Assembly (NCBI RefSeq): GCF_058153355.1
Contig: NZ_CM177019.1
DNA: 64,000 nt
Reading direction: 5' to 3' (one strand)
Part shown: positions 16,292 to 26,378 of the stretch, piece by piece
How the letters are laid out: every line of letters begins with the position of its first letter
Numbering within the stretch: position 1 is the stretch's first letter
Program-made: the position numbers and the translations under genes
The notes under the pieces: generated by a model
The model's input: the letters and a program-made list of their open reading frames with translations, nothing else
What the model was told of the DNA's origin: nothing
The model's database searches: none

Positions 16292-16652
16292 ATCAAGTAG
16301 CGCGCATTCTATGGAGACATGCGAGTTCATGCAACTAAAAAATTGCATAATTTGTTTTATTGGTCACATTTTATGCGACACGATGAAGAAACAGTCGAAC
16401 AGAGGGCAAATTAGCACACTTTTTCAACATCATTGTTCTCAACAATGCGCTCCTTCTAAAGCGCAATTCTTTTTATCAGATGGAATATCTGTCACATTGC
16501 TTTTCAACGATAGCTTCCCGGGAGAGATTTTTTCTTATTATTCCTCCCCATCTGGTGTTACCCTCCTGCCCATTAACCCATTCAACAGAACTGTGACGCG
16601 CCATGGCAAATATCGTTTTGCCGATAGAGCTATGACCGCCAGAAACATGCTT

Positions 16653-17603
16653 ATGAGTATAAAAGAGCAAACGTTAATGACGCCTTACCTACAGTTTGAC
16701 CGCAACCAGTGGGCAGCTCTGCGTGATTCCGTACCTATGACGTTATCGGAAGATGAGATCGCCCGTCTCAAAGGTATTAATGAAGATCTCTCGTTAGAAG
16801 AAGTGGCCGAGATCTATTTACCTCTGTCACGTTTGCTGAACTTCTATATAAGCTCGAATCTGCGCCGTCAGGCAGTTCTGGAACAGTTTCTTGGTACCAA
16901 CGGGCAACGCATTCCTTACATTATCAGTATCGCAGGTAGCGTCGCGGTGGGGAAAAGTACAACCGCCCGTGTATTGCAGGCACTATTAAGCCGTTGGCCG
17001 GAGCATCGTCGTGTTGAGCTGATCACTACAGATGGCTTCCTTCACCCTAATCAGGTGCTGAAAGAACGTGGTCTGATGAAGAAGAAAGGCTTCCCGGAAT
17101 CGTATGATATGCATCGCCTGGTGAAGTTTGTTTCCGATCTCAAATCCGGCGTGCCAAACGTTACGGCACCTGTTTACTCGCATCTTATTTATGATGTGAT
17201 CCCGGATGGAGACAAAACTGTTGTTCAGCCTGATATTTTAATTCTTGAAGGGTTAAATGTCTTACAGAGCGGGATGGATTATCCTCACGATCCACATCAT
17301 GTATTTGTTTCTGATTTTGTCGATTTTTCGATATATGTTGATGCACCAGAAGACTTACTTCAAACGTGGTATATCAACCGTTTCCTGAAATTCCGTGAAG
17401 GGGCTTTTACAGACCCGGATTCCTATTTTCATAACTACGCGAAATTAACTAAAGAAGAAGCGATTAACACTGCCATGACATTGTGGAAAGAGATCAACTG
17501 GCTGAACTTAAAGCAAAATATTCTACCTACTCGTGAGCGCGCCAGTTTAATCCTGACAAAGAGTGCTAATCACGCGGTAGAAGAGGTCAGACTACGCAAA
17601 TAA
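16653..17603 (+). CDS. coaA: pantothenate kinase (type I); start at [12 protein letters not shown], six-frame ORF is a 5' read-through extension
   Basis: 316-aa CoaA sequence with Walker [10 protein letters not shown]. Confidence 0.95.
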
Positions 17604-17612
17604 TTTAAAGGG

Positions 17613-17624
17613 GAGCTAATGCTC
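17613..17624. repeat. 12-bp target-site duplication GAGCTAATGCTC (left copy) flanking IS4
   Basis: Identical 12-mer at 19051-19062 directly abutting the other IS end. Confidence 0.9.
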
Positions 17625-19050
17625 TAATGCCGATCAGTTAAGGATCAGTTGACCGATCCAGTGGCTGTGTAAGAATCCGGAAACGCTCACTTGTTTCCGG
17701 ATTTTTTTATGCACATTGGACAGGCTCTTGATCTGGTATCCCGTTACGATTCTCTGCGTAACCCACTGACTTCTCTGGGGGATTACCTCGACCCCGAACT
17801 CATCTCTCGTTGCCTTGCCGAATCAGGTACTGTAACGCTACGCAAGCGCCGTCTTCCCCTCGAAATGATGGTCTGGTGTATTGTTGGCATGGCGCTTGAG
17901 CGTAAAGAACCTCTTCACCAGATTGTGAATCGCCTGGACATCATGCTGCCGGGCAATCGCCCCTTCGTTGCCCCCAGTGCCGTTATTCAGGCCCGCCAGC
18001 GCCTGGGAAGTGAGGCTGTCCGCCGCGTGTTCACGAAAACAGCGCAGCTCTGGCATAACGCCACGCCGCATCCGCACTGGTGCGGCCTGACCCTGCTGGC
18101 CATCGATGGTGTGTTCTGGCGCACACCGGATACACCAGAGAACGATGCAGCCTTCCCCCGCCAGACACATGCCGGGAACCCGGCGCTCTACCCGCAGGTC
18201 AAAATGGTCTGCCAGATGGAACTGACCAGCCATCTGCTGACGGCTGCAGCCTTCGGCACGATGAAGAACAGCGAAAATGAGCTTGCTGAGCAACTTATAG
18301 AACAAACCGGCGATAACACTCTGACGTTAATGGATAAAGGTTATTACTCACTGGGACTGTTAAATGCCTGGAGCCTGGCGGGAGAACACCGCCACTGGAT
18401 GATACCTCTCAGAAAGGGAGCGCAATATGAAGAGATCAGAAAACTGGGTAAAGGCGATCATCTGGTGAAGCTGAAAACCAGCCCGCAGGCACGAAAAAAG
18501 TGGCCGGGACTGGGAAATGAAGTGACAGCCCGCCTGCTGACCGTGACGCGCAAAGGAAAAGTCTGCCATCTGCTGACGTCGATGACGGACGCCATGCGCT
18601 TCCCCGGAGGAGAAATGGCGGATCTGTACAGTCATCGCTGGGAAATCGAACTGGGATACAGGGAGATAAAACAGACGATGCAACTGAGCAGGCTGACGCT
18701 GAGAAGTAAAAAGCCGGAGCTTGTGGAGCAAGAGCTGTGGGGTGTCTTACTGGCTTATAATCTGGTGAGATATCAGATGATTAAAATGGCGGAACATCTG
18801 AAAGGTTACTGGCCGAATCAACTGAGTTTCTCAGAATCATGCGGAATGGTGATGAGAATGCTGATGACATTGCAGGGCGCTTCACCGGGACGTATACCGG
18901 AGCTGATGCGCGATCTTGCAAGTATGGGACAACTTGTGAAATTACCGACAAGAAGGGAAAGGGCCTTCCCGAGAGTGGTAAAGGAGAGGCCCTGGAAATA
19001 CCCCACAGCCCCGAAAAAGAGCCAGTCAGTTGCTTAACTGACTGGCATTA
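17625..19050 (+). mobile_element. IS4: IS4 insertion sequence, complete (1426 bp, imperfect 18-bp terminal inverted repeats TAATGCCGATCAGTTAAG / TAATGCCAGTCAGTTAAG)
   Basis: Length, terminal IRs, flanking 12-bp direct repeat and an intact IS4-type transposase ORF. Confidence 0.93.
17709..19037 (+). CDS. insG: IS4 transposase (start at [10 protein letters not shown])
   Basis: 442-aa ORF matching IS4 transposase, DDE-type. Confidence 0.92.
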
Positions 19051-19062
19051 GAGCTAATGCTC
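19051..19062. repeat. 12-bp target-site duplication GAGCTAATGCTC (right copy)
   Basis: Direct repeat of 17613-17624. Confidence 0.9.
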
Positions 19063-19069
19063 CCCTTTC

Positions 19070-20035
19070 TTATTTTTCTGCACTACGCAGGGATATTTCA
19101 CCGCCCATCCAGGGTTTTATTATTCCATCCTGCTCAAGCAATAAAGCGCCTTGTTTGTCTATTCCGCGTGAAATGCCAAATATTTCTTTATCACCAATGA
19201 TAAGTTTCACTGGGCGATTAATAAAATTATCCAGTTTTTCCCAGCGCGACAGATAAGGTGCCAATCCTTCTTGCTCGAAGAGTTCCAGCGCCGCACGTAA
19301 TTCACGTATTAGCATGGCCGCCAACGCATTACGATCGAGATTGATCCCAGCTTCCTGAAGCGTGATCCACCCCTGATTAACGATATTCTCTTCAACACGA
19401 CGCATTGCCATGTTGATCCCGGCACCAATGACTATTTGCGCCGCATCGCCGGTTTTGCCAGTCAGCTCCACAAGAATACCTGCCAGCTTGCGATCCTGCA
19501 GATAGAGGTCATTCGGCCATTTAACACGAACTTTATCAGCGCCCAACTTGCGTAATACTTCCGCCATCACGATACCGATAACCAGACTTAAACCAATCGC
19601 CGCAGCCGGGCCTTGTTCCAGACGCCAGAACATCGACAAATATAAGTTTGCGCCAAAAGGTGAAAACCATTTCCGACCTCGGCGACCACGTCCTGCCTGC
19701 TGGTATTCAGCAACGCAGGCATCACCCGATTTAAGCTCTCCGATACGATCAAGAAGATACTGATTCGTGGAGTCAATAACGGGCAGCACGGCTACACTAC
19801 CGCTATCCAGCTGACTCAATATCTGTTCAGCATTAAGTAACTGGATGGGCTCAGGCAGGCTGTATCCTTTACCCGGAACGGTAAAGACATCAACGCCCCA
19901 GTCACGCAGTGTTTGAATATGTTTATTAATGGCCGCCCGGCTCATTCCTAACGTTTCACCCAGCTGCTCACCAGAGTGAAATTCGCCATTCGCTAATAGC
20001 GTGATTAATTTTAGCGGAACGGTATTATCCTTCAT
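19070..20035 (-). CDS. birA: bifunctional biotin-[acetyl-CoA-carboxylase] ligase and biotin operon repressor
   Basis: 321-aa [53 protein letters not shown]... Confidence 0.96.
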
Positions 20036-21060
20036 GAAATCGTCTCCACTGCGCTAACTTCACCTGATGTACCAATAAAGCGAACTTCTGGCTCAAGCCA
20101 GACATTAAATTTTTCACCCACTTTCTGTCTTACATGATGTGCCAGCTGCACAATATCTTCGCTTTTTGCATTGCCTTCATTAATGAGAACTAACGCCTGT
20201 TGACGGTGTACCGCAGCCCCACCAATTTGTGTTCCTTTTAGCTGGCACTGATCGATAAGCCAACCAGCGGCCAGTTTTACTGAACCATCCGTCTGGGGAT
20301 AATTTGGTGCTGTTGGAAATTGTGCCAGTAATGCTTTAGCCGTTTCGGCAGATACAACAGGGTTTTTGAAGAAACTACCGGCATTGCCATTCACTTTTGG
20401 ATCAGGGAGTTTGGTGGTGCGCATATGACACACCGCATCAAATACTTGCTGTGGCGTTACGGTTGTAGGATCCAGACGAGTTAAGTCACCATACGTTAGT
20501 ACAGGTTGCCACTCTTTTGGCAGGCGCAGACCTACGGCTACAATGGCGAAGCGGTCCTGGTATTCATGTTTAAAAATACTGTCGCGATAGCCAAAACGGC
20601 ACTCTTTGGCAGTTAAGCGCACTTGCTTGCCTGTCGCCAGTTCGACACAGTCAACATAAGCGCAAACTCGCTGTAATTCTACGCCATAAGCACCAATATT
20701 CTGGATAGGTGATGAGCCGACACAACCAGGAATTAACGCCAGATTTTCCAGACCTGGCATACCTTCCTGCAAAGTGTATTTTACCAGTCGATGCCAGTTT
20801 TCTCCGGCTCCTACATGTAAATACCACGCATCAGGTTCATCATGAATTTCGATACCTTTGATCCGGTTGATGATCACCGTGCCGCGATAGTCTTCCAGAA
20901 AAAGTACATTACTTCCTTCACCCAGAATAAGAACGGGTTGCCCTTCTGCGGTTGCATGCTGCCAGGCATTGAGTAGTTGTTGTTCGTCTTCGGCACATAC
21001 AATGTGCTGAGCATTATGATCAATGCCAAATGTGTTCCAGGGTTTTAAGGAGTGGTTCAT
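20032..21060 (-). CDS. murB: UDP-N-acetylenolpyruvoylglucosamine reductase
   Basis: 342-aa ORF; 4-bp overlap with birA. Confidence 0.96.
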
Positions 21061-21149
21061 AGCTGCTTTCCTGATGCAAAAACGAGGCTAGTTTACCGTA
21101 TCTGTGGGGGGATGGCTTGTAGTTATGACGACAGGGAGAGTTTGTAGAA

Positions 21150-21180
21150 ACGCAAAAAGGCCCAGTCTTCCGACTGGGCC
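21150..21180 (-). terminator. rrnB operon terminator (hairpin GGCCCAGTC-GGAA-GACTGGGCC followed by TTTTTGCG)
   Basis: Stem-loop plus U-run 15 nt downstream of 5S rRNA 3' end. Confidence 0.8.
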
Positions 21181-21194
21181 TTCTGCTTAATTTG

Positions 21195-21314
21195 ATGCCT
21201 GGCAGTTCCCTACTCTCGCATGGGGAGACCCCACACTACCATCGGCGCTACGGCGTTTCACTTCTGAGTTCGGCATGGGGTCAGGTGGGACCACCGCGCT
21301 AAGGCCGCCAGGCA
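21195..21314 (-). rRNA. rrfB: 5S ribosomal RNA
   Basis: 120 nt; reverse complement starts TGCCTGGCGGCC...and ends ...GGGAACTGCCAGGCAT. Confidence 0.95.
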
Positions 21315-21500
21315 AATTCCTGTGCTCTGTCCTGTGTCTTTTGTGCTGATACTGCGTTGGCTGCATTCGCGAAAATCAGTCACATACTTCAGTATGCTCC
21401 TTCCTTCGCTTCATTTGCCGCCTTGTCTCAGCGCAAAATCCTTCGGACTCTGGATCCAAGCTGAAATTCTCTCAATCCGCCAAAACACCTTCGGCGTTGT

Positions 21501-24405
<2,905 letters not shown>

Positions 24406-24589: not shown

Positions 24590-24665
24590 TGGCGTCCCCT
24601 AGGGGATTCGAACCCCTGTTACCGCCGTGAAAGGGCGGTGTCCTGGGCCTCTAGACGAAGGGGAC
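24590..24665 (-). tRNA. gltT: tRNA-Glu (UUC) in 16S-23S spacer
   Basis: 76 nt; reverse complement GTCCCCTTCGTCTAGAGGCCCAGGACACCGCCCTTTCACGGCGGTAACAGGGGTTCGAATCCCCTAGGGGACGCCA. Confidence 0.95.

Positions 24666-24836: not shown

Positions 24837-26378
<1,542 letters not shown>

What the first reader, a model, noticed from the sequence alone, without database searches (positions are those of the whole stretch)
21120..21194. rrnB ends in a single hybrid terminator instead of K-12's tandem T1-T2
In K-12 (and in cloning vectors carrying rrnB T1T2) the 5S gene is followed by T1, a spacer with a partial 5S 3'-end repeat, then T2; about 300 bp separates 5S from murB. Here only 134 bp separates them and there is one hairpin. 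Its stem resembles T1 (GGCCCAGTC-GGAA-GACTGGGCC) while its flanks resemble T2 (CAAATTAAGCAGAA ... TTTTTGCGTTTCTACAAACTCT). This is what recombination between the 5S 3' end and the 5S-like repeat before T2 would produce, or it may be the ancestral state. Termination efficiency into murB-birA could differ.
Basis: partly seen in the sequence, partly recalled or inferred. Interest (0 to 1): 0.3.

Follow-up and report, generated by a model that had tools for sequence, protein, structure and literature searches.

The report
Common single-terminator allele ending rrnB
This E. coli ribosomal RNA operon ends in one ordinary hairpin terminator instead of K-12's two, but that one-terminator form is found in about half of sequenced E. 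coli and in most related species, so it is a normal, probably older, variant.

Summary
In the window (minus strand) the 5S gene rrfB (21195-21314) is separated from murB (start 21060) by 134 nt carrying one hairpin, GGCCCAGTC-GGAA-GACTGGGCC (21159-21180), followed by UUUUUGCGUUUCU. K-12 has 300 nt with T1, a spacer, a partial 5S end and T2. The hairpin's flanks match K-12 T2 and its core matches T1.

The difference from K-12 is two separate polymorphisms:
- Presence or absence of a 168-nt "T1 module" bounded by an 18-nt direct repeat.
- Two alternative cores, CAGTC-type or ATCC-type, in the murB-proximal hairpin.

Approximate counts among 5,426 complete E. coli genomes:
- Tandem form: 2,513, of which 14 carry the CAGTC core.
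- Single terminator, CAGTC core (the window's allele): about 2,120.
- Single terminator, ATCC core: about 602.

Of 41 Enterobacteriaceae species with a genuine 5S end upstream of murB, 37 have a single hairpin. These include E. whittamii and two other Escherichia lineages. Kosakonia and Citrobacter carry the identical 22-nt hairpin.

The window therefore holds a common, probably ancestral-type intrinsic terminator, not a lineage-specific hybrid. Any effect on read-through into murB-birA is untested. Interest is low.

The parts
21195..21314 (-). rrfB, the 5S rRNA gene and last gene of the rrnB operon. Its 3' end is ...GGGAACTGCCAGGCAT.
   Evidence: Rfam 5S_rRNA, 93.2 bits, at 21197-21312. The ends are set by alignment to K-12 rrfB.
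21181..21194 (-). 5' flank CAAAUUAAGCAGAA. This is an AU-rich single-stranded stretch between the mature 5S 3' end and the hairpin. Its last bases, AGAA, pair with the U-run in the extended helix.
   Evidence: Together with the first GGCC of the stem it is identical (18/18) to the K-12 T2 5' flank. Fold.
21159..21180 (-). Terminator stem-loop GGCCCAGUC-GGAA-GACUGGGCC, with 9 perfect pairs and a GNRA-type tetraloop.
   Evidence: Extended helix -26.8 kcal/mol, z = -5.7. A hairpin is conserved at this position in 37 aligned species, with compensatory changes at 5 of 12 pairs. The identical 22-mer occurs in L021 and L085.
21146..21158 (-). U-rich tract UUUUUGCGUUUCU immediately 3' of the stem.
   Evidence: TTTTTGC is invariant in the 37-species alignment. 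The tract is identical to the tail of K-12 T2.
21088..21099 (-). Conserved ACGGTAAACTAG motif, including a TAAACT -10-like hexamer at 21090-21095. It is the candidate promoter of murB and lies downstream of the terminator. This is an inference.
   Evidence: A CGGTAAACTA-like motif lies within 70 nt of the murB ATG in 72 of 80 Enterobacteriaceae loci. The consensus promoter scan did not call it.
20032..21060 (-). murB, the first gene downstream of the terminator. birA follows at 19070-20035.
   Evidence: ORF list. Hits are annotated murB, birA and coaA in E. coli genomes at 99.6% identity.

Best explanation
The 75 bases are the Rho-independent (intrinsic) terminator of the rrnB operon, in the common single-terminator allele.

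How it works. RNA polymerase finishes the 5S gene and transcribes 14 AU-rich bases. It then makes a 9-bp G+C-rich hairpin with a GGAA loop, extendable to about 15 pairs, followed by a U-run, and releases the transcript. murB is then expressed from its own conserved promoter-like element about 60 nt further on.

Position. The hairpin occupies the place of K-12's T2, directly upstream of the murB promoter region.

Differences from K-12. There are two independent polymorphisms:
- The 168-nt T1 module is absent. In K-12 it consists of T1, a spacer of roughly 105-110 nt and a 13-nt copy of the 5S 3' end, and it is bounded by an 18-nt direct repeat, AACTGCCAGGCATCAAAT.
- The stem-loop core is the CAGTC-GGAA-GACTG type rather than the ATCC-TGAC-GGAT type.

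Origin. Both core types and the T1 module belong to a family of paralogous terminators at the ends of rrn operons. I infer that they are shuffled among operons and strains by gene conversion and repeat-mediated gain or loss. The single-terminator state is most likely the older one at this locus, and K-12's tandem most likely arose when the T1 module was copied in from another rrn operon.

Shown: the anatomy, the allele frequencies and the conservation. Inferred: actual termination, the direction of change and the conversion mechanism.
For: Anatomy and stability.

Conservation:
- All 41 species whose contig carries a genuine 5S end upstream of murB have a hairpin of -22 to -33 kcal/mol with a T-run right after the 5S.
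- The 37-sequence alignment has an invariant TTTTTGC and compensatory changes at 5 of 12 pairs.

Single state in relatives:
- 37 of the 41 species have a single hairpin, with gaps clustering at 122-145 nt.
- E. whittamii has a 134-nt gap and a CAGTC-type core with compensatory changes.
- Escherichia sp. E1V33 and E. coli E69 have 132-nt gaps and an ATCC-type core.
- The identical 22-nt hairpin plus TTTTTGCG occurs in Kosakonia oryzendophytica and Citrobacter amalonaticus.

Frequencies in 5,426 complete E. coli genomes:
- Tandem form: 2,513.
- Window-type hairpin at rrnB: 2,134, of which only 14 are in tandem form.
- Single terminator with ATCC core: 602.

Paralogy and shuffling:
- K-12 rrnA carries the same T1 module as rrnB, with one difference in 168 nt. 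rrnD has T1 after rrfF. rrnG has a single T2-type hairpin.
- The window's hairpin and flank are 44/44 identical to the single rrnA terminator of strain 2015C-3905.
- The same hairpin ends a tandem rrnE in SE11 and O103:H2.

From the literature: K-12 T1 alone stopped 99.1% of transcripts in a reporter assay (PMC9023263). One hairpin of this core type can therefore be sufficient.
Against: - No expression or 3'-end data were available for any single-terminator strain, so termination here is inferred from structure and conservation only.
- The consensus terminator scan did not call the site.
- The direction of change is not proven. The module is flanked by an 18-nt direct repeat, so loss is mechanistically easy. 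Fourteen E. coli genomes carry a tandem form whose second hairpin is the window type, and deleting the module from such an allele would give exactly the window's sequence.
- The tandem form also occurs upstream of murB in Kluyvera genomosp. 3, Enterobacter sp. CC120223-11 and Citrobacter portucalensis. It is therefore old or recurrent, and parsimony across species is weakened by concerted evolution.
- The E. albertii contig breaks inside the 5' flank, so it says nothing about single versus tandem.
- E. fergusonii and Salmonella were not among the loci recovered.
Confidence: 0.8

Rival explanations
1. Secondary deletion. An ancestor with a tandem T1-T2 lost the 168-nt module by recombination or slippage between the 5S 3' end and the 5S-like repeat before the second hairpin, leaving the second hairpin alone.
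For: - The module is bounded by an exact 18-nt direct repeat, AACTGCCAGGCATCAAAT.
- Tandem alleles whose second hairpin is the window type exist at rrnB in 14 genomes. One is strain 2020CK-00188, whose murB-coaA region is 99.1% identical to the window. Deleting the module from such an allele reproduces the window's sequence.
Against: - The parent cannot be K-12-like, because that deletion yields the ATCC-core single allele.
- The required parent is rare (14 genomes against about 2,120 for the supposed product). It is equally well explained as the product of copying a T1 module into the single allele.
- Sister Escherichia lineages and 37 of 41 Enterobacteriaceae species have the single form.
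Confidence: 0.15
2. True T1 x T2 chimera. A crossover inside the two hairpins of a tandem allele fused the T1 core to the T2 tail in this lineage.
For: The core is 20-21/22 identical to T1 and the tail is identical to T2.
Against: - A crossover within the hairpins would keep T1's 5' flank, CAAATAAAACGAAAGG. The window has T2's flank, CAAATTAAGCAGAAGG. Two crossovers within about 30 nt, on 5-7 nt of homology, would be needed.
- The same composite is present in Kosakonia and Citrobacter, and with compensatory substitutions in E. whittamii and E. albertii. It therefore predates E. coli.
Confidence: 0.03
3. Assembly artefact. A collapse of the repeated 5S-end sequences removed the T1 module from the assembled window.
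For: The region is repetitive, and draft assemblies break here. Many of the contigs recovered end within or just after the 5S or the hairpin.
Against: The same junction is present in more than 2,700 complete genomes and in several other species. The 134-nt and 132-nt gaps are exactly 300 minus 168, plus or minus the 2-nt difference in core length.
Confidence: 0.02

Closest known systems
E. coli K-12 rrnB terminator T2, the murB-proximal hairpin
   Same: Same genomic position, directly upstream of the murB promoter region. The 5' flank is identical (18/18) and the 3' stem, U-tract and tail are identical (26/26).
   Different: The core of the stem-loop is CAGTC-GGAA-GACTG instead of ATCC-TGAC-GGAT, which makes it 2 nt longer and predicted to be more stable (-26.8 against -22.7 kcal/mol). 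Here it follows the real 5S gene rather than a 13-nt 5S remnant.
E. coli K-12 T1 terminators of rrnB, rrnA and rrnD
   Same: The 22-nt stem-loop is 20/22 identical to rrnB T1 and 21/22 to rrnA and rrnD T1. The single change there, U to C, turns a U.G pair into C-G. Like T1, it directly follows a 5S gene.
   Different: It lacks T1's long A/U extension (AAAACGAAAGG...CCUUUCGUUUUAU) and the spacer that follows T1. T1 folds at -32.6 kcal/mol.
Single terminator of K-12 rrnG, and single rrnA terminators in other strains
   Same: Same architecture: 5S, then about 14 nt, then one hairpin, then UUUUUGC. The rrnA terminator of strain 2015C-3905 is 44/44 identical to the window's.
   Different: K-12 rrnG has the ATCC core, and the unique sequence downstream differs.

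Membership tests
Rho-independent (intrinsic) transcription terminator | G+C-rich RNA hairpin | tested here: met
   Nine perfect pairs, seven of them G-C, with a GGAA loop. The extended helix folds at -26.8 kcal/mol and no shuffle of 200 folds as well.
Rho-independent (intrinsic) transcription terminator | U-rich tract immediately 3' of the hairpin | tested here: met
   UUUUUGCGUUUCU at 21146-21158. TTTTTGC is invariant in 37 species. The consensus scanner did not call the site.
Rho-independent (intrinsic) transcription terminator | Lies at the 3' end of a transcription unit, on the transcribed strand | tested here: met
   It lies 14 nt after the 5S gene of rrnB on the same strand.
Rho-independent (intrinsic) transcription terminator | Transcripts actually end there | not testable with these tools
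   No RNA 3'-end data. The only experimental figure found is for K-12 T1, with 99.1% termination in a reporter assay (PMC9023263).
K-12 rrnB T2 | Position and flanking sequence directly upstream of the murB promoter region | tested here: met
   Flanks match at 18/18 and 26/26.
K-12 rrnB T2 | Stem-loop GGCCATCC-TGAC-GGATGGCC | tested here: not met
   The core is CAGTC-GGAA-GACTG. It is an allelic alternative at the same site, and both cores occur in the single and the tandem forms.
K-12 rrnB T1 module | T1 hairpin with its A/U-extended stem, followed by the spacer and a 5S 3'-end copy (168 nt in all) | tested here: not met
   The module is absent: there is a 166-nt gap in the alignment and only one 5S end upstream of murB. 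Only the 22-nt core resembles T1.

The most novel reading that the evidence does not exclude
The 168-nt T1 module behaves as a portable cassette bounded by the 5S 3'-end repeat. It is gained and lost at the ends of different rrn operons (rrnA, rrnB and rrnE in E. coli; rrnB in Kluyvera, Enterobacter and Citrobacter). On this reading, its presence or absence at rrnB is a maintained polymorphism that sets how much of the very heavy rRNA transcription leaks into murB-birA, which encode a cell-wall synthesis enzyme and the biotin ligase/repressor.
Probability: 0.08. Interest if true: 0.35.

Novelty: already known. Interest (0 to 1): 0.12.

Why it matters
It matters little for biology in general. 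It is a useful caution that the textbook and cloning-vector 'rrnB T1T2' arrangement is one allele of a polymorphic locus, carried by 46% of complete E. coli genomes, and probably not the ancestral one.

It could matter for three narrower purposes:
- Studies of read-through from rrn operons into neighbouring genes.
- PCR or typing schemes that use the rrfB-murB spacer.
- Understanding concerted evolution at the ends of rRNA operons.

If single and tandem alleles differ in leakage into murB-birA, that would be a small natural regulatory difference between E. coli lineages. Nothing here shows that they do.

Tried and rejected
- Degenerate second 5S gene. I tested whether the K-12 T1-T2 spacer is a decayed 5S gene, which would make the tandem a duplicated [5S + terminator] unit of 120 + 48 nt. 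Rfam gave no 5S hit to the spacer even at E <= 10. BLAST found only the terminal 13 nt. The idea is not supported.
- Link to the tyrT repeats. The spacer gives a weak RtT hit (17 bits, E = 1.2) and a match of about 30 nt to the tyrT-tyrV spacer. This is too weak to build on and is recorded only as noticed.
- Consensus scan. The terminator and promoter scan of 20900-21400 found nothing and was uninformative.
- Literature. Searches for a description of this polymorphism found none in the held library. Anton et al. 1999 on rrnB diversity is cited by other papers but is not itself held there. Brandis et al. 2019 (PMC6735719) mention murB-birA-coaA only as an insertion between rrnB and tufB.
- Clean counts of the four allele combinations. 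Coverage thresholds alone failed, because BLAST pieces on either side of the hairpin are joined (one search was inflated in this way). I solved this with strict E-value cut-offs.
- E. albertii. Its contig starts inside the 5' flank, so it cannot be scored for single versus tandem.

Full report
**What is in the window**

The window carries an E. coli-type rrnB region on the minus strand:
- 16S rRNA at 24837-26378 and tRNA-Glu at 24593-24665.
- 23S rRNA at 21501-24405.
- 5S rRNA at 21195-21314.
- murB at 20032-21060 and birA at 19070-20035.
- coaA on the opposite strand, then the thrU-tyrU-glyT-thrT tRNA genes.

The murB-coaA segment is 99.6% identical to its best E. coli matches. The rrfB-murB gap is 21061-21194, 134 nt. 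It reads (minus strand) CAAATTAAGCAGAA-GGCCCAGTC-GGAA-GACTGGGCC-TTTTTGCGTTTCTACAAACTCT....

**Check of the observation**

K-12 MG1655 has 300 nt between rrfB and murB. In the pairwise alignment the two sequences are nearly identical, apart from one block of 166 nt missing from the window and a few substitutions around the hairpin. The window folds into a single strong hairpin, -26.8 kcal/mol, z = -5.7. K-12 T1 folds at -32.6 and K-12 T2 at -22.7.

The flanks of the window's hairpin are identical to those of K-12 T2, at 18/18 and 26/26 positions. The 22-nt stem-loop is 20/22 identical to rrnB T1 and 21/22 identical to the T1 of K-12 rrnA and rrnD.

**How common the single-terminator form is**

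I used the K-12 junction as a query. Only genomes carrying the insert can cover at least 80% of it. By that test, 2,513 of 5,426 complete E. coli genomes (46%) have the tandem form upstream of murB.

The window's 75 nt, which include an rrnB-specific tail, are covered at 80% or more in 2,134 genomes. A query with a strict score cut-off, specific for 'tandem form plus window-type second hairpin at rrnB', finds 14 genomes. About 2,120 genomes (39%) therefore carry the window's single-terminator allele.

A similar strict query for 'single terminator with the K-12 T2-type core' finds 602 genomes (11%). About 190 genomes remain unclassified.

Recognisable strains among the listed hits:
- Single form: O157:H7, O55:H7 and an APEC O1:K1:H7 strain.
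- Tandem form: K-12 derivatives and an O111 strain.

From general knowledge of E. coli phylogroups, not from any test here, this suggests that phylogroups E and B2 carry the single form and A and B1 the tandem form.

**Two independent polymorphisms**

The sequences show that 'K-12 versus window' is two differences.

The first is a 168-nt module made of T1, a spacer and a 13-nt copy of the 5S 3' end. It is bounded by an exact 18-nt direct repeat, AACTGCCAGGCATCAAAT, and is either present or absent.

The second is the core of the murB-proximal hairpin. It is either CAGTC-GGAA-GACTG or ATCC-TGAC-GGAT, in both cases set within GGCC...GGCC and identical flanks.

All four combinations exist at rrnB, but the module and the core are strongly linked:

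| Form | ATCC core | CAGTC core |
|---|---|---|
| Tandem | about 2,499 | 14 |
| Single | 602 | about 2,120 |

The arithmetic fits. 300 - 168 = 132 nt for the single ATCC form, as seen in GF3-3, E69 and E1V33. Adding 2 nt for the longer core gives the window's 134 nt.

**A shuffled family of paralogous terminators**

In K-12, rrnA has the same tandem as rrnB, with one difference in the 168-nt module. rrnD has T1 after its second 5S gene. rrnG has a single ATCC-core hairpin. rrnE has an unrelated single hairpin.

In other strains the pattern changes. rrnA ends in a single hairpin 44/44 identical to the window's (strain 2015C-3905). rrnE ends in a tandem whose second hairpin is exactly the window's (SE11 and O103:H2). 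The SNPs in the 5' flank (CAAAT[T/A]AA[G/A]C[AG/GA]AAGG) form a mosaic across alleles. This is what repeated gene conversion among rrn operon ends would produce. That mechanism is an inference.

**Outgroups**

I fetched the murB locus from 80 species-representative genomes. In 41 of them the contig reaches a genuine 5S end.
- All 41 have a hairpin of -22 to -33 kcal/mol followed by a T-run directly after the 5S.
- 37 have only that one hairpin. The 5S-murB distances in these 37 run from 122 to 253 nt, and most fall between 122 and 145 nt.
- E. whittamii has a 134-nt gap and the hairpin GGCTCAGTC-GAAA-GACTGAGCC, a window-type core with a compensatory pair change.
- Escherichia sp. E1V33 and E. 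coli E69 have 132-nt gaps and ATCC cores.
- E. albertii has a CAGTC-like core, CCCGGTC-GAAA-GACCGGG, but its contig stops too early to score single versus tandem.
- Kosakonia oryzendophytica and Citrobacter amalonaticus have the window's 22-nt hairpin and TTTTTGCG exactly.

A tandem with a T1 module upstream of murB is present in Kluyvera genomosp. 3, Enterobacter sp. CC120223-11 and Citrobacter portucalensis. Raoultella and Enterobacter JUb54 carry partial versions.

An alignment of 37 single-hairpin sequences has TTTTTGC invariant and compensatory changes at 5 of 12 predicted pairs. This is good evidence that the structure, rather than the sequence, is under selection.

**Interpretation**

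The element is the intrinsic terminator of rrnB. Its 'hybrid' look comes from using K-12 as the reference. The CAGTC core in T2-type flanks is an old and widespread variant, not a product of recombination in this lineage.

It could give the window's allele only from the rare tandem, CAGTC-core form.

The single form predominates in sister lineages and across the family, so I judge it the older state at this locus. I judge K-12's tandem to result from copying the T1 module in from another rrn operon. The homology available for that is the 5S gene upstream and the hairpin and flank downstream. I put roughly two to one on that direction. The flanking direct repeat makes loss easy, and concerted evolution blurs parsimony.

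**Function**

murB keeps a conserved ACGGTAAACTA motif about 30 nt upstream of its ATG in 72 of 80 species. It lies downstream of the terminator in both the single and the tandem forms. murB therefore probably does not depend on read-through; this is an inference.

K-12 T1 alone terminated 99.1% of transcripts in a reporter assay (PMC9023263). The window's hairpin has that core with a perfect C-G in place of T1's U.G pair, and it carries the T2 U-tract. A single copy is therefore plausibly an efficient stop. Whether read-through differs between alleles cannot be decided here.

From established knowledge of 9S RNA processing, the AU-rich CAAAUUAAG between the 5S end and a 3' hairpin has the same layout as the RNase E site downstream of 5S in K-12. 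I did not test this.

**Verdict**

The feature is an ordinary, already-sequenced allele of a known kind of element, so interest is low.

The held literature contained no explicit description of the polymorphism. The frequency table and the two-polymorphism decomposition may therefore be a small useful note for people who treat 'rrnB T1T2' as the native state.

Noticed in passing
window 17613-19062: A complete IS4 copy lies at 17625-19050. It is 1,426 bp long, has 18-bp terminal inverted repeats, and encodes a transposase with the Nterm_IS4 and DDE_Tnp_1 domains. It is flanked by a 12-bp target duplication, GAGCTAATGCTC. It sits inside the palindrome AAAGGGGAGC-TAAT-GCTCCCCTTT between the convergent genes coaA and birA, so it splits what looks like their shared bidirectional terminator. 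None of 5,426 complete E. coli genomes covers 80% or more of window 16292-21060, so the insertion was not seen at this site in that set.
   Followed up: partly
window 21315-21500: The 23S-5S spacer of this rrnB is 186 nt, against 92 nt in K-12 rrnB. A full-length match occurs in only 368 of 5,426 complete E. coli genomes, and in the strain I checked (2013C-4282) it lies in another rrn operon. In one search only one listed genome (CFSAN018748) matched through the 5S-proximal end of this spacer at rrnB. Similar long spacers occur in Phytobacter ursingii and Klebsiella michiganensis.
   Followed up: partly
window 21290-21300 (5S gene, 5' part): The 5S gene reads GGCGGCCTTAGCGCGG where K-12 rrfB has GGCGGCAGTAGCGCGG. 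This is a variable loop position that also differs among the outgroup 5S genes.
   Followed up: no
L007 (E. coli 88-3493, rrfB-murB): This single-terminator allele has the ATCC-core hairpin with its loop inverted: ATCC-GTCA-GGAT instead of ATCC-TGAC-GGAT. That is the exact reverse complement of the hairpin core. The same inverted loop is seen in Escherichia sp. ESNIH1 (L054) and Superficieibacter (L045). It could arise by template switching within the hairpin.
   Followed up: no
L001 444-487 (K-12 T1-T2 spacer; absent from the window): The spacer of the 168-nt T1 module gives a weak RtT (RF00391) hit, 17 bits and E = 1.2. It also shares about 30 nt with the tyrT-tyrV spacer (GAACGTTGC...GCAACGGCCCG[G/A]AGGGTG). 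It is not recognisable as a decayed 5S gene.
   Followed up: partly
L095, L096 (E. coli SE11 and O103:H2, rrnE end): In these strains rrnE ends in a T1 module followed by a window-type hairpin and is followed directly by yjaB. K-12 rrnE has a single unrelated hairpin followed by yjaA and then yjaB. The ends of rrnE, including the presence of yjaA, are therefore polymorphic too.
   Followed up: no
L012 (Escherichia sp. MOD1-EC7003, upstream of murB): Between a T2-like hairpin with an rrnA/rrnG-type tail and the murB promoter region, this genome has an extra stretch of about 330 nt. It contains REP-like sequence and the start of an ORF that I did not identify.
   Followed up: no
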